Shown piece after piece: positions 1 through 50,699 of a stretch of DNA of 50,699 nt. Positions within the stretch are counted from its first letter, which is position 1. The number at the start of each line of letters is the position of its first letter. A program made the position numbers and the translations under genes. Origin of the DNA: a phage; sequence record PZ150740.1, one strand, 5' to 3'. The notes under the pieces are model-generated. The model had not been told where the DNA came from and searched no databases. It saw only the letters and a program-made list of their open reading frames with translations.

Positions 1-4
1 GGGC

Positions 5-49
5 ACTTTATCAAATGCCCTTGCGGAAGTTTTAACAAAAAGTGCTATT
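5..49 (-). promoter_or_regulatory. box promoter unit (box 29-49, -10-like TAAAGT 5-10); leader continues at window end
   Basis: Perfect box; 18-bp spacer; stop of gene 48-338 in box. Confidence 0.5.
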
Positions 50-338
50 AGCTCAGATAGTAAAGCTCATCGCGCGCGAAGTCGTCAAAATCTCGCTGTG
101 TCAGCGGTCGATCCTCTCGCGCCGCTTCCTCTATCATGTTGATCAAGAAATCGTTCATCGCTCCTAGTCCACCATCCGGCATATAGCAAGCTGCGAAAGC
201 TCGCGCCCATGAACGAGCATTTTTGAATCCGGCGCGCTTCATTGTGACTGGCGAGTGTTTAGAGTCGTTCCACTTGTTAAACTGCGCGATGTTTTCAAAA
301 GCGTTAACCAGTAGTTTGCGGTAAGTTTTGTTTGCCAT
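48..338 (-). CDS. hypothetical early protein
   Basis: ORF track; stop codon embedded in box copy at 29-49. Confidence 0.5.
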   Translation of the reverse strand: MANKTYRKLLVNAFENIAQFNKWNDSKHSPVTMKRAGFKNARSWARAFAACYMPDGGLGAMNDFLINMIEEAAREDRPLTQRDFDDFARDELYYLS

Positions 339-7325: not shown

Positions 7326-7598
7326 ATGAACATCAGCAAAACCACTTTCAACTTCGCTAAGCGTCACGGTCTGGATCTGACTGTTGAAGACTTCGGCGAT
7401 GTTCTGCAACTCTGCATATGGGAAGCAGATAACGATTGCGAGTGGCTTTGCTCTTACCGTATCAACTACGATTGCTTGACCTGGCACGGCAATATCTATC
7501 TGCCGCAAGAAGTGAAGGAAGAATTGCCAGCGACTATCAACAACGAAGTTTTCTTGCGTCAGGTGCTGAAATTTATCAGTGAGGAGATCAAGAAGTGA
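7326..7598 (+). CDS. hypothetical early protein
   Basis: ORF track; box unit 7247-7291 upstream. Confidence 0.55.
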   Translation: MNISKTTFNFAKRHGLDLTVEDFGDVLQLCIWEADNDCEWLCSYRINYDCLTWHGNIYLPQEVKEELPATINNEVFLRQVLKFISEEIKK

Positions 7599-7864
7599 TG
7601 GCGGTGATTACCGAAAATGATTTGGATCTGGCGGAGGCATTTTGCAGGGCCGCCAGGGCTAACCTGGATGTGGCTACTAAATTTCTTCCGGTGCGCCCAC
7701 TCTTTTCGTGTGCGCCCGTGAATAAACCGACTCGCGTAATGATCGTGATTGAAGGTGATGGCCTGTACGCTGAAAAGACGTTCCACATCAGCAACATTAA
7801 GGGCCGTGCTGATTTTATCAATGATGTTTGCTTATTGCAGGAGAAGAAAAAATGCTTAATGTGA
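7598..7864 (+). CDS. hypothetical protein
   Basis: ORF track; start overlaps upstream stop (TGATG). Confidence 0.5.
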   Translation: MAVITENDLDLAEAFCRAARANLDVATKFLPVRPLFSCAPVNKPTRVMIVIEGDGLYAEKTFHISNIKGRADFINDVCLLQEKKKCLM

Positions 7865-42717: not shown

Positions 42718-42767
42718 TTTATTTCTCCTTACATAATAAAAAAGGCGCTCAAGCGAGCGCCTTGATT

Positions 42768-48626: not shown

Positions 48627-48669
48627 TGTTAATCCTCCTTTGGTTAGATGCCTGATTATACCAAACAAC

Positions 48670-48700
48670 GGGCAATAAAAAACCCGCCGTGCGGCGGGTC
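48670..48700 (-). terminator. rho-independent terminator upstream of terminase promoter
   Basis: CCCGCC-gtgc-GGCGGG hairpin followed by TTTTTTATTG on minus strand; then TGGTATAAT extended -10. Confidence 0.5.
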
Positions 48701-48704
48701 ATTT

Positions 48705-48929
48705 TTAAGCTGTATATTTTACTTTTCCATCTTTGGCTCGAATGGAATTTAGGATCTTGCTACCGATCATCAGGTATTGACCACGGACAAGCCATTTCTT
48801 TTGTTTTTCGCTCCAGATTGCAGAAGCGTACCAACCTTTATTAATCACGAACTTATAAGCAAAGCGCATGACAACGGAAAAGATAATGATAGCCATGATA
48901 AAACCAATGCAGAAAGATAATGCGATCAT
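48705..48929 (-). CDS. small membrane protein
   Basis: ORF track; hydrophobic N-terminus. Confidence 0.45.
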   Translation of the reverse strand: MIALSFCIGFIMAIIIFSVVMRFAYKFVINKGWYASAIWSEKQKKWLVRGQYLMIGSKILNSIRAKDGKVKYTA

Positions 48930-49111
48930 TGTAAAGCCCTCACAAGGTTAATTGAAAATTGATGTGTTTCAGGATTAGCGCCAGATTGCTCTTTTGCTTT
49001 TGCTACTGCTTCCAGTTCATCAAGAGCATCAACTACGCATTCATATTCCTGTTTGCATGATTGGCAATTACGCCCCATTCGCCGGATCGTCATCTTCACT
49101 TTGTAATTCAT
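48926..49111 (-). CDS. small Cys-containing protein (start adjusted to MNYKVKM)
   Basis: ORF track frame; CQSC...C motif. Confidence 0.4.
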   Translation of the reverse strand: MNYKVKMTIRRMGRNCQSCKQEYECVVDALDELEAVAKAKEQSGANPETHQFSINLVRALQ

Positions 49112-49301
49112 CAGCGACAACCTCACGCTTAATGCTGGTAATGTTGTGAATCGGGTAAGCAACATTACCGATAGAAATGCAAGTTTCGTCACCGTCTAGC
49201 TGATCCTCTGTAGCTTCTACTGTAAAGCTGTTAACAAAGCTATTGTAGAAAGGATGAATAACGGTATCACGGAAAGAAACGGTTAATTTGTATTTAATCA
49301 T
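49068..49301 (-). CDS. hypothetical protein
   Basis: ORF track; RBS GGAGA; downstream of structured leader. Confidence 0.5.
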   Translation of the reverse strand: MIKYKLTVSFRDTVIHPFYNSFVNSFTVEATEDQLDGDETCISIGNVAYPIHNITSIKREVVADELQSEDDDPANGA

Positions 49302-49434
49302 TTTGAATCTCCATTAAAAAAGGCGATACGTCTTACGGATTATCTTGCATTGCAAAAACCTCCTGCATATCGCCGTTGCTGTGTGACTATCGCGTCACGC
49401 GTTCGGACTAAGCCGCTCTTATGTAAACGACGCC

Positions 49435-49463
49435 ATGCTAACCAATCAGGAAAGAGTTGTCAA
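49435..49463 (-). promoter_or_regulatory. sigma70-like promoter (TTGACA-17-TAGCAT) with long structured leader
   Basis: Minus strand TTGACAactctttcctgattggtTAGCAT; ~125-nt leader with inverted repeats before gene 49068-49301. Confidence 0.45.
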
Positions 49464-49694
49464 TCATTCCCTGTCGAAAGCGTTCCCCCAACGTCCGCGC
49501 AAGTAACCACATAGCCAAATGAATTGAGTGATCGTCAACATTGGCGCGATTGGCTGGTAGTGTTCTGCAATGATGCCCTTCATTACTTCATCAACATACT
49601 TCCCGCGCTTTTCCACATCCGCTTTCATCGCCTCGCCGCACTTTTTAGCCTGGCGTTTAGCTGCGTTGAATTGCGCCTCATTCATTCCAAACAT
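49464..49694 (-). CDS. hypothetical protein
   Basis: ORF track. Confidence 0.5.
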   Translation of the reverse strand: MFGMNEAQFNAAKRQAKKCGEAMKADVEKRGKYVDEVMKGIIAEHYQPIAPMLTITQFIWLCGYLRGRWGNAFDRE

Positions 49695-50480: not shown

Positions 50481-50671
50481 TCGTCATGGTTAACACTAAT
50501 ATTATCGCCAGCCTTGATAAACTCGCTGTTACGCGGCGCAATAACACAATAAGATCCGTCACTGAAATGACCGTCAACCTCCAGCACATCACCAACAACC
50601 AAACCGCATTGCTCAAGAGTAATTGATCCGTCGCCGTTGATAGTGTCGATTTTGGTGATTTTGATTTTCAT
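50459..50671 (-). CDS. hypothetical protein (first gene of box unit that spans the window junction)
   Basis: ORF track; RBS GAGGAAAG; leader matches box-unit leader consensus. Confidence 0.5.
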   Translation of the reverse strand: MKIKITKIDTINGDGSITLEQCGLVVGDVLEVDGHFSDGSYCVIAPRNSEFIKAGDNISVNHDECEVVEE

Positions 50672-50699
50672 TGCGCTTTCCTCTGTTTCGCTTCAATAA

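What the first reader, a model, noticed from the sequence alone, without database searches (positions are those of the whole stretch)
49302..49463. sigma70-like promoter with a long structured leader upstream of the terminase-proximal gene block
Directly after the stop of gene 49464-49694, the minus strand reads TTGACA-17-TAGCAT, followed by a leader of about 125 nt with nested inverted repeats (GGCGATA...TATCGCC at 49322-49374; GTGAC..GTCAC at 49383-49398) before the RBS of gene 49068-49301. A long structured leader here could be a regulatory RNA element, or the region may contain the packaging initiation site. Both are speculative.
Basis: partly seen in the sequence, partly recalled or inferred. 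Interest (0 to 1): 0.4.

Follow-up and report, generated by a model that had tools for sequence, protein, structure and literature searches.

The report
Conserved promoter and structured leader RNA
A host-type promoter in this T1-like phage launches a small folded RNA, conserved across the whole T1 phage family just upstream of the DNA-packaging genes, that is not in RNA databases and probably controls how far transcription runs into those genes.

Summary
The window is a T1-like coliphage (Drexlerviridae, Warwickvirus).

**What is there**
- A promoter, TTGACA-17-TAGCAT, at 49463-49435 on the minus strand.
- From predicted +1 (49428) it would make a 113-nt RNA: a 13-nt single-stranded 5' motif, hairpins P1 and P2, and a long hairpin P3 followed by U6 that abuts the next gene's ribosome-binding site.

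**Conservation**
- The promoter plus RNA occurs once per genome, at the same place, in every complete related locus examined (99 loci).
- BLAST with four versions finds about 600 phage records.

**Evidence that it is an RNA**
- All three helices are kept by compensatory changes (0 of 500 shuffles reach the observed values).
- G-U pairs outnumber A-C by 37 to 4, so the fold belongs to the transcribed strand.

**Novelty**
- No Rfam family matches.
- It is absent from 185,579 bacterial and archaeal species genomes.
- No paper in the library describes it.

**Interpretation**
- The packaging-site idea is not supported: T1's physical end is 7.6 kb from its copy.
- The function is inferred, not shown.
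- The most likely role is a promoter-proximal leader or short RNA that governs read-through into the terminator-rich packaging and structural genes.
- A trans-acting small RNA is the main rival.

The parts
49458..49463 (-). -35 hexamer TTGACA; overlaps the TGA stop of the upstream gene
   Evidence: TTGACn in 58 of 59 distinct family promoters.
49442..49449 (-). Conserved spacer motif CTGATTGG (family consensus CTGAnnGG), ending 1-3 nt before the -10; supplies G at -14
   Evidence: present in 58 of 59 distinct promoters. CTGAnnGG-N0-4-TAnnnT occurs 9 times in the window against 1.15 expected. Role unknown.
49435..49440 (-). -10 hexamer TAGCAT (TAnnnT in all relatives)
49429..49434 (-). Discriminator: 6 nt here, 7 nt in most relatives, variable in sequence. 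Conservation restarts at C-1/G+1.
   Evidence: information 0.04-0.6 bits at -7 to -2, 1.8 bits at -1.
49416..49428 (-). Predicted start G (49428) and 5' single-stranded motif GUUUACAUAAGAG (family consensus GUnnAC(A/G)nAAGAG)
   Evidence: The motif was part of the selecting regex, but the covariance model recovers it in loci the regex missed. The start site is predicted, not mapped.
49404..49415 (-). Hairpin P1: CGG/CCG, 3 bp here and 4-5 bp in relatives; variable loop
   Evidence: pairs 14:29, 15:28 and 16:27 switch between CG, GC, UA and GU.
49399..49403 (-). Conserved linker AACGC between P1 and P2
   Evidence: A26, A27 invariant; C28, G29 nearly invariant.
49383..49398 (-). Hairpin P2: GUGAC-GCGAUA-GUCAC (5 bp, 6-nt loop with conserved CG)
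   Evidence: 98.8% of cells paired; 4 of 5 pairs change on both sides.
49375..49382 (-). C/A-rich single-stranded linker ACAGCAAC (CAACAAC in relatives)
49322..49374 (-). Hairpin P3. Outer 9-bp stem 49374-49366 with 49330-49322; inner GG/CC 49363-49362 with 49338-49337; lineage-specific inserted hairpin 49357-49343; conserved CCGUAA(GA) at 49338-49331 on the 3' side of the loop.
   Evidence: -19.8 kcal/mol, z = -4.1; 96.1% paired, 7 pairs with changes on both sides, 0 of 500 shuffles; the short form of P3 is conserved in T1-, TLS- and Eclunavirus-type phages.
49316..49321 (-). U6 tract directly after P3. With the G+C-rich base of P3 it makes an intrinsic-terminator-like site; the predicted RNA 49428-49316 is 113 nt.
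   Evidence: A U-rich tract is present in Warwick-, Hanriver- and Webervirus types and absent in T1, TLS and Eclunavirus types.
49299..49312 (-). RBS GGAG (49312-49309) and ATG (49301-49299) of the first downstream gene
48705..49301 (-). Small-gene module served by the element: 77 aa (49301-49068); 61-aa CxxC protein, phrog_2919 (49111-48926); 74-aa membrane protein, DUF7299 (48929-48705)
   Evidence: All are of unknown function. The CxxC and DUF7299 genes recur between the element and TerS in the relatives whose sequence or annotation was read.
48681..48700 (-). Strong intrinsic terminator ending the small-gene module, followed by an extended -10 (TGGTATAAT, 48663-48655) in front of TerS
   Evidence: -14.6 kcal/mol, z = -4.5.

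Best explanation
**Shown**
- A near-consensus sigma-70 promoter (49463-49435, minus strand) sits at the head of a conserved, structured RNA.
- The RNA has a single-stranded 5' motif, hairpins P1 and P2, a C/A-rich linker, and hairpin P3 with a CCGUAA loop motif.
- There is one copy per genome in all Drexlerviridae examined. It always points toward the small CxxC/DUF7299 genes, the terminase and the structural genes.
- The element is an RNA of the transcribed strand.

**Inferred for this phage**
- Host RNA polymerase starts at or next to G 49428.
- P3 plus U6 acts as an intrinsic terminator 12 nt before the ATG. Many transcripts would then end as an RNA of about 113 nt.
- Only read-through transcripts would express the three small genes and continue toward the next terminator (48700) and the packaging and structural genes.

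**Inferred mechanism**
- The conserved 5' domain is the regulatory module that sets read-through, either by binding a factor or by acting on the transcribing polymerase itself, as HK022 put RNA does.
- The element would then be the transcriptional gate at the boundary between the early small genes and the packaging/late genes.
- That block contains several terminators directly abutting ribosome-binding sites, which must be read through.
For: **Identity and anatomy**
- The window is a Warwickvirus.

**Conservation**
- 89 of 100 related loci match a strict promoter + 5' motif pattern.
- Covariance model R1 recovers six of the loci the pattern missed at 55-57 bits and a seventh (Jk06) weakly at 16.8 bits.
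- R1 finds exactly one copy in the window (66.8 bits, E 3.5e-18) and one in a whole related genome.
- All six metagenome contigs found by pattern also score as copies.
- Conservation drops in the discriminator and restarts at C-1/G+1.

**RNA structure**
- P1 and P2: 91.5% of cells paired against 65.6 +/- 1.9 in shuffles. Covariation score 0.694 against 0.226; slid controls at most 0.135.
- P3: 96.1% paired and 7 pairs with changes on both sides, 0 of 500 shuffles.
- The short form of P3 is perfect in 14 of 15 sequences, with 10 different stem versions.
- G-U 37 against A-C 4.

**Terminator and read-through**
- P3 folds at -19.8 kcal/mol (z = -4.1) and is followed by U6.
- Co-directional late-operon terminators at 42760, 41883, 40860 and 37487 are followed within 8-15 nt by RBS and ATG, leaving no room for a promoter.

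**Against a purely translational role**
- tRNA genes follow the element in Jk06, a Veterinaerplatzvirus and L204. L191 has what looks like a fourth, read by eye only.

**This promoter is unusual in the genome**
- It is the only intergenic TTGACn-17/18-TAnnnT in the window.
- The roughly 17 other promoter-like sites belong to a different repeat-associated class.
Against: - There are no transcript data. The start site, termination at P3 and any read-through control are all predictions.
- The U tract after P3 is missing in T1-, TLS-, Eclunavirus- and Sauletekiovirus-type copies. Termination therefore cannot be the family-wide function.
- No conserved alternative (antiterminator) pairing was found by inspection.
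- P1 and P2 are short simple hairpins, unlike the long bulged stems of put RNA. R1 finds nothing in HK022.
- Other promoters lie closer to the structural genes: an extended -10 before TerS and a repeat-type promoter before the portal gene. The late genes need not depend on this promoter.
- No Q- or N-type antiterminator was detected among 44 hypothetical proteins of a close relative.
- Webervirus copies keep only the 5' motif, P1 and a terminator-like hairpin.
Confidence: 0.45

Rival explanations
1. It is a stand-alone small non-coding RNA gene. The roughly 113-nt RNA (promoter to P3-U6) is itself the product and acts in trans, by base-pairing through its conserved 5' motif or by sequestering a host or phage protein. 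Expression of the downstream genes is a side effect of leaky termination. A precedent is StxS, the short PR'-tR' transcript of Stx phages, which acts as an sRNA.
For: - It is a discrete promoter-to-terminator unit in the window and in Webervirus, where BLAST finds 349 records.
- The 3' end could be defined in other ways elsewhere. tRNA genes start 8-11 nt after the P3 tail in three lineages, with a probable fourth in L191, so RNase P cleavage would release the RNA.
- It has a conserved single-stranded 5' end, a C/A-rich linker and a U tail, features typical of Hfq-associated sRNAs.
- StxS precedent: PMC7547250, abstract seen.
Against: - T1-, TLS- and Eclunavirus-type copies run straight into an RBS and ORF, with neither a terminator nor a tRNA.
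- Positions 3, 4 and 8 of the 5' motif vary freely, which is unusual for a seed that pairs with a conserved target.
- No target was sought or found.
Confidence: 0.25
2. It is a 5' UTR element acting after transcription on the downstream message, affecting mRNA stability, processing or translation initiation. For example, P3 next to the Shine-Dalgarno sequence, or the SD-like AAGAG at the 5' end, could modulate ribosome access or protect against RNase E.
For: - P3 ends 9-12 nt before the RBS in most versions.
- The 5' motif is purine-rich and SD-like.
- Versions without a U tract cannot act by termination.
Against: The same element, including P3 and its tail, precedes tRNA genes rather than ORFs in several lineages. 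The identity of the first downstream ORF also varies.
Confidence: 0.12
3. It is a lambda-Q-type late promoter region, that is, DNA-level control. A phage protein would bind the conserved spacer motif CTGAnnGG, load onto polymerase paused in the conserved initial transcribed sequence, and make it terminator-resistant. The RNA hairpins would be secondary.
For: - A strong constitutive-looking promoter, then a short transcript, then a terminator, all upstream of the late genes. This matches the PR'-6S-tR' layout.
- DNA conservation runs almost continuously from -35 to +13, including a spacer motif.
Against: - The conserved +1 to +13 region contains no -10-like nAnnnT element to induce a sigma-dependent pause (by inspection).
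- No Q-family Pfam hit was found among 44 hypothetical proteins of the close relative PeterMerian.
- Strong covariation shows that selection acts on the RNA helices.
Confidence: 0.08
4. It is the packaging initiation (pac) site or another DNA-level site such as an origin.
For: It lies near the terminase genes, about 650 nt upstream of TerS. In some phages pac lies in or near the small-terminase gene.
Against: - T1's terminal repeat is at record positions 1-2800, while its copy of the element is at 7588-7765.
- The TLS and SU57 papers place pac at the genome end, before the small-gene block.
- Stems maintained by compensatory changes and strand-specific G-U pairs fit an RNA and not a sequence-specific DNA site.
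Confidence: 0.02

Closest known systems
Lambdoid late promoter region PR'-6S RNA-tR' (and its Stx-phage version, whose short transcript StxS is a regulatory sRNA; PMC7547250)
   Same: A strong sigma-70 promoter just upstream of the late, packaging and structural genes. A short transcript ends at an intrinsic terminator about 100-200 nt downstream. Downstream expression needs read-through, and the short RNA may have its own function.
   Different: No Q homologue was detected. No -10-like pause element lies in the conserved initial transcribed region. Here the RNA itself is under structural selection. T1- and TLS-type copies lack the terminator's U tract.
HK022 put RNA (cis-acting processive antiterminator; PMC9378689)
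   Same: It is promoter-proximal, as putL starts next to the PL start site. It has adjacent stem-loops, needs no dedicated protein, and sits upstream of transcription units containing terminators. In neither case is an Rfam model available.
   Different: put consists of two long stems with bulges and a triplex, about 70 nt in all. Here there are short 4-5-bp hairpins, a single-stranded 5' motif and a third hairpin. No similarity is detectable (R1 finds nothing in HK022). There is one copy per genome instead of two. Activity is untested.
Lambda N-utilisation (nut) sites: boxA + boxB
   Same: A single-stranded conserved motif is followed by a 5-bp hairpin with a small conserved loop, in a promoter-proximal leader upstream of terminators.
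   Different: The transcribed strand has no boxA. CGCTCTTA occurs only as the reverse complement of the 5' motif (by inspection). The P2 loop has 6 nt and is not a GNRA-like pentaloop. No N-like gene was identified.
Leader-terminator attenuators and riboswitch expression platforms
   Same: A structured 5' leader ends in a terminator hairpin plus U tract immediately upstream of the RBS.
   Different: No conserved mutually exclusive antiterminator helix was found. No Rfam riboswitch or leader matches. The terminator's U tract is not universal in the family.

Membership tests
Sigma-70 (housekeeping) promoter | -35 TTGACA-like and -10 TATAAT-like hexamers 16-18 bp apart | tested here: met
   TTGACA-17-TAGCAT, 10 of 12 matches. 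G at -14 is read from the sequence.
Sigma-70 (housekeeping) promoter | Elements conserved in position and sequence among relatives | tested here: met
   TTGACn in 58 of 59 distinct promoters. Spacer is 17 nt in 56 and 18 nt in 3. TAnnnT in all, though that was required by the selecting pattern. The covariance model recovers further loci independently.
Sigma-70 (housekeeping) promoter | Transcription start mapped 6-9 nt after the -10 | not testable with these tools
   Only inferred, from conservation restarting at C-1/G+1.
Intrinsic (Rho-independent) terminator | G+C-rich stem immediately followed by a U tract | tested here: met
   The GGCG/CGCC base of P3 is followed by U6. Fold energy -19.8 kcal/mol.
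Intrinsic (Rho-independent) terminator | Compact hairpin with a short loop (3-8 nt) | tested here: not met
   The 9-bp outer stem encloses 35 nt, which are themselves structured. The consensus scan did not call it a terminator.
Intrinsic (Rho-independent) terminator | U tract conserved in homologous copies | tested here: inconclusive
   Present in Warwick-, Hanriver- and Webervirus types and several unnamed lineages. Absent in T1, TLS, Eclunavirus and Sauletekiovirus types.
HK022 put RNA | Sequence and structure similarity to putL/putR | tested here: not met
   R1 gives no hit in the HK022 genome at E <= 10. The architectures differ (PMC9378689).
HK022 put RNA | Cis-acting suppression of downstream terminators through the beta' zinc-binding domain | not testable with these tools
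   Needs in vitro transcription or genetics.
Lambda Q / PR' late control | Q-family antiterminator gene in the genome | tested here: not met
   A Pfam scan of 44 hypothetical proteins of the close relative PeterMerian lists no Q family. Only 25 of the 27 families matched are shown, and distant homologues could be missed.
Lambda Q / PR' late control | -10-like sigma-dependent pause element in the initial transcribed region | tested here: not met
   The conserved GUnnAC(A/G)nAAGAG contains no nAnnnT (by inspection).
Lambda N / nut site | boxA (CGCUCUUUA-like) on the RNA, followed by a boxB hairpin | tested here: not met
   A boxA-like string exists only on the non-transcribed sense. P2 is boxB-sized but has a 6-nt loop.
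Hfq-type trans-acting sRNA | Own promoter, terminator hairpin with a U tail, conserved single-stranded seed | tested here: inconclusive
   Met in the window. There is no terminator in T1- and TLS-type copies, and 3 of the 13 motif positions vary freely.
pac site of T1-like phages | Coincides with the physical or terminal-repeat end of packaged DNA | tested here: not met
   T1 terminal repeat at 1-2800 against element at 7588-7765. pac placement in TLS and SU57. Not tested on this phage's own virion DNA.
Any Rfam 15 family | Match to a curated covariance model | tested here: not met
   No relevant hit at E <= 10 in the window or at E <= 1 in ten diverse relatives.

The most novel reading that the evidence does not exclude
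The element is a new, family-wide RNA that acts directly on host RNA polymerase or on a host factor. One possibility is a put-like, protein-independent processive antiterminator. It would load at the one canonical sigma-70 promoter and carry polymerase through the many terminator-RBS junctions of the T1-family late operon. That would explain how these phages, which have no known late regulator, express their structural genes. A more speculative variant: the P3 loop (xCGUAA followed by the stem) mimics a tRNA anticodon loop and recruits or decoys a tRNA-binding protein.
Probability: 0.2. Interest if true: 0.85.

Novelty: new variant of a known kind. Interest (0 to 1): 0.62.

Why it matters
T1 is one of the original T phages, yet how it and its roughly 800 sequenced relatives control late gene expression is unknown. 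No phage polymerase, sigma factor or antiterminator is known, and the late operon is full of terminators. This element is the only canonical host promoter of its type found between genes in the genome. It is joined to an RNA under clear structural selection and sits exactly at the early/late boundary.

That turns the open question into concrete experiments: a 113-nt RNA, three helices with natural compensatory variants, and one terminator. It also adds an unannotated structured RNA family to a group of phages widely used in therapy collections and as model systems (the BASEL collection). Finally, it marks a strong, conserved expression site where different lineages have inserted tRNA genes.

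Tried and rejected
1. **Rfam.** No family matches in the window or in ten relatives.
2. **First collection scan.** A 15-base gapped pattern in viral contigs returned about 120 mostly chance loci and was abandoned.
3. **Bacterial and archaeal genomes.** A 21-base pattern gave one hit in a MAG. The covariance model shows it is only a chance match to the 5' motif, without hairpins.
4. **Leader peptide.**
   - The mini-ORF MQEVFAMQDNP inside P3 lies in a 17-nt insertion absent from most Hanrivervirus copies.
   - The plus-strand ORF 49350-49514 is broken by the same indel.
   - Both are rejected.
5. **"Intergenic region more conserved than its flanking genes."** Searches suggested this, but it does not hold. 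Within the genus the region is 98% identical, the same as the adjacent genes.
6. **Pairing of the 5' motif or AACG linker with the CCGUAA loop, the P3 5' strand or the tail.** The candidate pairings are not conserved across lineages (inspection).
7. **K-turn reading of the UAAGA internal loop.** Rejected because the partner A is U in several sequences.
8. **RfaH ops resemblance.** GGCGGTA occurs in Webervirus, but it is just the P1 stem and is not conserved elsewhere.
9. **Flanking proteins.** PHROGs and Pfam give only families of unknown function.
10. **Literature.** No paper in the library links Drexlerviridae with antitermination or describes an sRNA in them, and "inducer of pleiotropic effects" returned nothing. 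One search was too loose to be useful.

Full report
**What the window is.** BLAST places the region in T1-like siphophages: family Drexlerviridae, subfamily Tempevirinae, genus Warwickvirus. The best matches are phages Kalemo and tunus. On the minus strand the order is as follows:
- many small genes of unknown function;
- a 76-aa gene (49694-49464), homologous to T1 gp59;
- the 162-nt intergenic region of the finding;
- three small genes (77 aa; a 61-aa CxxC protein; a 74-aa DUF7299 membrane protein);
- a strong terminator (48700-48681);
- TerS, TerL, portal and the structural genes.

**Check of the observation.**
- TTGACA (49463-49458), a 17-nt spacer and TAGCAT (49440-49435).
- GTGAC/GTCAC (49398-49394 with 49387-49383).
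- GGCGATA/TATCGCC, which is part of a 9-bp stem (49374-49366 with 49330-49322).
- The RBS (49312-49309) and ATG (49301).

From the single sequence alone this is not beyond chance. The scan finds 6 promoter-like sites where shuffles give 4.9 +/- 2.1, although this site is the best at 10/12. The whole leader folds with z of only about -1.7. Only the long hairpin is exceptional (-19.8 kcal/mol, z = -4.1).

**Comparative evidence.** I collected the homologous region from 100 loci. They came from GenBank phages of eight genera or subfamilies and from IMG/VR contigs found through the gp59-like protein.
- A strict pattern (TTGnnn, 16-18 nt, TAnnnT, 4-9 nt, GTnnAC...GAG) matches 89 of the 100.
- Covariance model R1, built from 33 distinct sequences of the 5' domain, recovers six of the missed loci at 55-57 bits. 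It recovers Rogunavirus Jk06 weakly, at 16.8 bits.
- One more missed locus is a Webervirus variant, seen by eye.
- Two (Pantoea phage AAS23 and L191) have a diverged 5' part but keep the promoter and the last hairpin.
- One locus is truncated.

So every complete locus has the element, always once. It lies directly after the gp59 homologue or one gene further on, and 2-4 small genes (in some lineages a tRNA gene) before TerS.
- R1 finds exactly one copy in the window (49428-49373, 66.8 bits, E 3.5e-18).
- It finds one copy in the whole PeterMerian genome and one in the first 12 kb of T1 (7624-7681).
- BLAST with four versions of the element finds 131, 349, 70 and 57 phage records, one place per record.
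- The gp59-like protein is found in 835 records.
- A 21-base pattern scan of 185,579 bacterial and archaeal species genomes gave a single match. The model shows it to be chance.
- The same scan of metagenomes gave six phage-like contigs, several from human gut, all with high-scoring copies.

**Anatomy shared by the family**.
- A -35 TTGACn, almost always a 17-bp spacer, and a conserved spacer motif CTGAnnGG ending just before the -10.
- An imperfect -10 (TAnnnT) and a variable discriminator of 6-7 nt.
- Conservation then restarts sharply at C-1/G+1: GUnnAC(A/G)nAAGAG.
- Next come hairpin P1, the linker AACG, and hairpin P2.
- A variable middle part follows: a C/A-rich linker in the window's type, extra hairpins in T1 and TLS types.
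- Last is hairpin P3, whose loop ends in CCGUAA.
- Part of the motif's conservation was imposed by my selecting pattern. However, the model finds the same motif, with small deviations, in loci the pattern missed.
- Webervirus has a short form: 5' motif, P1 and a terminator-like hairpin.

**It is an RNA structure.**
- For P1 and P2, 91.5% of cells form standard pairs (shuffles 65.6 +/- 1.9). There are 90 cells with changes on both sides (36.8 +/- 4.6). The covariation score is 0.694 (0.226 in shuffles). None of 500 shuffles reaches these values, and sliding the partners by 1-3 columns gives at most 0.135.
- For P3 in the window's type, 96.1% of cells are paired. Seven pairs change on both sides (3.4 +/- 0.9, 0 of 500). 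The covariation score is 0.45 against 0.258.
- In the T1, TLS and Eclunavirus types the short P3 is a perfect 5-bp stem in 14 of 15 sequences, with ten different stem versions. With partners swapped between sequences it is perfect in only 17 of 184 cases.
- G-U pairs number 37. A-C, which would be G-U on the other strand, numbers 4. The fold therefore belongs to the transcribed (window minus) strand.
- Caveats: the sequences are related, the shuffle control is not a probability, and I derived the structures from these sequences. The slid controls and the many independent stem versions speak against an artefact.

**What it is not.**
- It is not a known RNA family. Rfam 15 gives nothing relevant in the window or in ten diverse relatives.
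- It is very unlikely to be the pac site.
  - T1's record begins with the 2.8-kb terminal repeat, while its copy of the element is at 7588-7765.
  - The TLS and SU57 papers put pac at the genome end, ahead of the small-gene block.
- It is not a leader peptide. The mini-ORF in P3 lies in a 17-nt insertion missing from most Hanrivervirus copies.
- It does not belong to the phage's main promoter class.
  - The window has about 17 copies of the TLS-type 21-nt repeat ATAGCACTTTTTGTTAAAA, each followed at a fixed distance by a -10-like hexamer.
  - The finding's promoter is the only intergenic TTGACn-17/18-TAnnnT.

**How it probably works.** What follows is inference.
- In the window, P3 has a G+C-rich base and is followed by U6 and then, 4 nt later, the RBS. 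Polymerase starting at 49428 should often stop at about 49316-49321, giving an RNA of about 113 nt. Only read-through would reach the three small genes.
- The same layout (hairpin, U tract, RBS) recurs downstream. The terminators at 42760, 41883, 40860 and 37487 are followed within 8-15 nt by RBS and ATG, with no room for a promoter. Read-through of terminators is therefore a built-in requirement of this phage's late expression.
- A single conserved promoter-proximal RNA at the head of this block is the obvious candidate for the device that sets read-through. It could do so by recruiting a factor or by modifying the polymerase itself, as HK022 put RNA does (PMC9378689).
- The element precedes tRNA genes in Jk06 (Arg-CCU), a Veterinaerplatzvirus (Arg-UCU) and L204 (Ser-GCU), and apparently in L191, where I read a tRNA-like start by eye only. 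It is therefore not a translational operator of one particular ORF.

**Against a simple terminator or attenuator model.**
- T1-, TLS-, Eclunavirus- and Sauletekiovirus-type copies have an A/C-rich tail (AACCAUUCAGGAG) instead of a U tract.
- I found no conserved alternative helix.
- Other promoters lie nearer the structural genes.

**Against known antitermination systems.**
- No Q family appears among 44 hypothetical proteins of a close relative. There are only weak hits to a sigma-70 region 4 domain, a KOW-like domain and Cro-like HTH domains.
- The conserved start region contains no -10-like pause element.
- There is no boxA on the RNA.
- The model finds no similarity to put in HK022. Rfam has no put model, so its silence says nothing about that class.

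**Main rival.** The RNA may itself be the product, a trans-acting small RNA.
- Its 3' end would be made by termination in the Warwick-, Hanriver- and Webervirus types, or by RNase P cleavage where a tRNA follows.
- The short PR'-tR' transcript StxS of Stx phages shows that both roles can coexist (PMC7547250, abstract).

**Novelty and verdict.**
- No paper in the searchable library links Drexlerviridae with antitermination or describes an sRNA in them. The TLS re-annotation lists three sigma-70 promoters and 21 terminators but not this element. The 2004 T1 genome paper was not available to me and may list the promoter.
- I rate the existence of a real promoter plus a conserved structured RNA at about 0.9, and the proposed read-through-control function at 0.45.
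- It is a new RNA family of a broadly known kind: a phage promoter-proximal leader or short RNA at the early/late boundary. It has features that fit none of the known systems tested.

Noticed in passing
window + strand 7248, 8331, 8837, 10753, 13588, 38137, 41891; - strand 46534, 20401, 17915, 16845, 5912, 5449, 4457, 2662, 1342, 48: About 17 copies of the TLS-type 21-nt direct repeat ATAGCAC(TTT/GAA)TTG(T/C)TAAAA. Each is followed about 19-20 nt later by a -10-like hexamer and then an RBS and ATG, always co-directional with the gene. Many have a G+C-rich palindrome between the repeat and the -10. This looks like the phage's main promoter class, with a non-canonical -35. The TLS paper leaves the repeat's function open.
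   Followed up: partly
window - strand 42760, 41883, 40860, 37487 (also 46500, 38215, 34407, 32270, 28613): Co-directional intrinsic terminators inside the structural operon. Several are followed within 8-15 nt by the next gene's RBS and ATG, so downstream genes can only be expressed by read-through.
   Followed up: partly
window 48655-48700 (- strand): A terminator (48700-48681) is immediately followed by a perfect extended -10 (TGGTATAAT, 48663-48655) and the TerS RBS. This is a terminator-promoter junction, suggesting that TerS and TerL have their own promoter.
   Followed up: no
L144 1403-1478 (Jk06), L146 1432-1508 (Veterinaerplatzvirus), L204 2102-2189, L191 about 1925 onward: Different tRNA genes (Arg-CCU, Arg-UCU, Ser-GCU, and one not typed) are inserted 8-11 nt after the element's last hairpin in separate lineages. 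The locus appears to be a preferred expression site for stable RNAs. The window itself has no tRNA gene.
   Followed up: partly
window 7277 (+), 8867 (+), 49449 (-) and six intragenic sites: CTGAnnGG-N0-4-TAnnnT occurs 9 times against 1.15 expected (0 of 100 shuffles reach 9). Three occurrences lie at intergenic promoter-like sites, so the motif may be a promoter-associated signal of unknown meaning.
   Followed up: partly
GenBank MG0656xx 'Campylobacter phage' records (e.g. L020 = MG065641): About 20 records labelled UNVERIFIED Campylobacter phages are classified as Hanrivervirus and carry this coliphage-type element. The host attribution looks doubtful.
   Followed up: no
window 49694-49464 (- strand); SFP17 locus L230 327-557: The conserved 76-aa gp59-like protein (phrog_303, 835 phage records) just upstream of the element is annotated in a few records as 'inducer of pleiotropic effects (ipe)'. 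No paper in the library uses the term.
   Followed up: partly
L021 (PeterMerian) hypothetical proteins: There are weak Pfam hits to Sigma70_r4_2 (E 1.8e-3), an EF-P KOW-like domain (2.3e-4) and P22_Cro/YdaS HTH domains among the hypothetical proteins. The output does not say which proteins they are. They are possible candidates for transcription factors of this phage group.
   Followed up: no
window 1-60 and 50640-50699: The window's length (50,699 bp) and gene content match a complete, circularly permuted T1-like genome. A repeat-type promoter at position 48 is cut by the window start, so the minus-strand early operon runs from about 7.1 kb across the window ends into the genes upstream of the element.
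   Followed up: no
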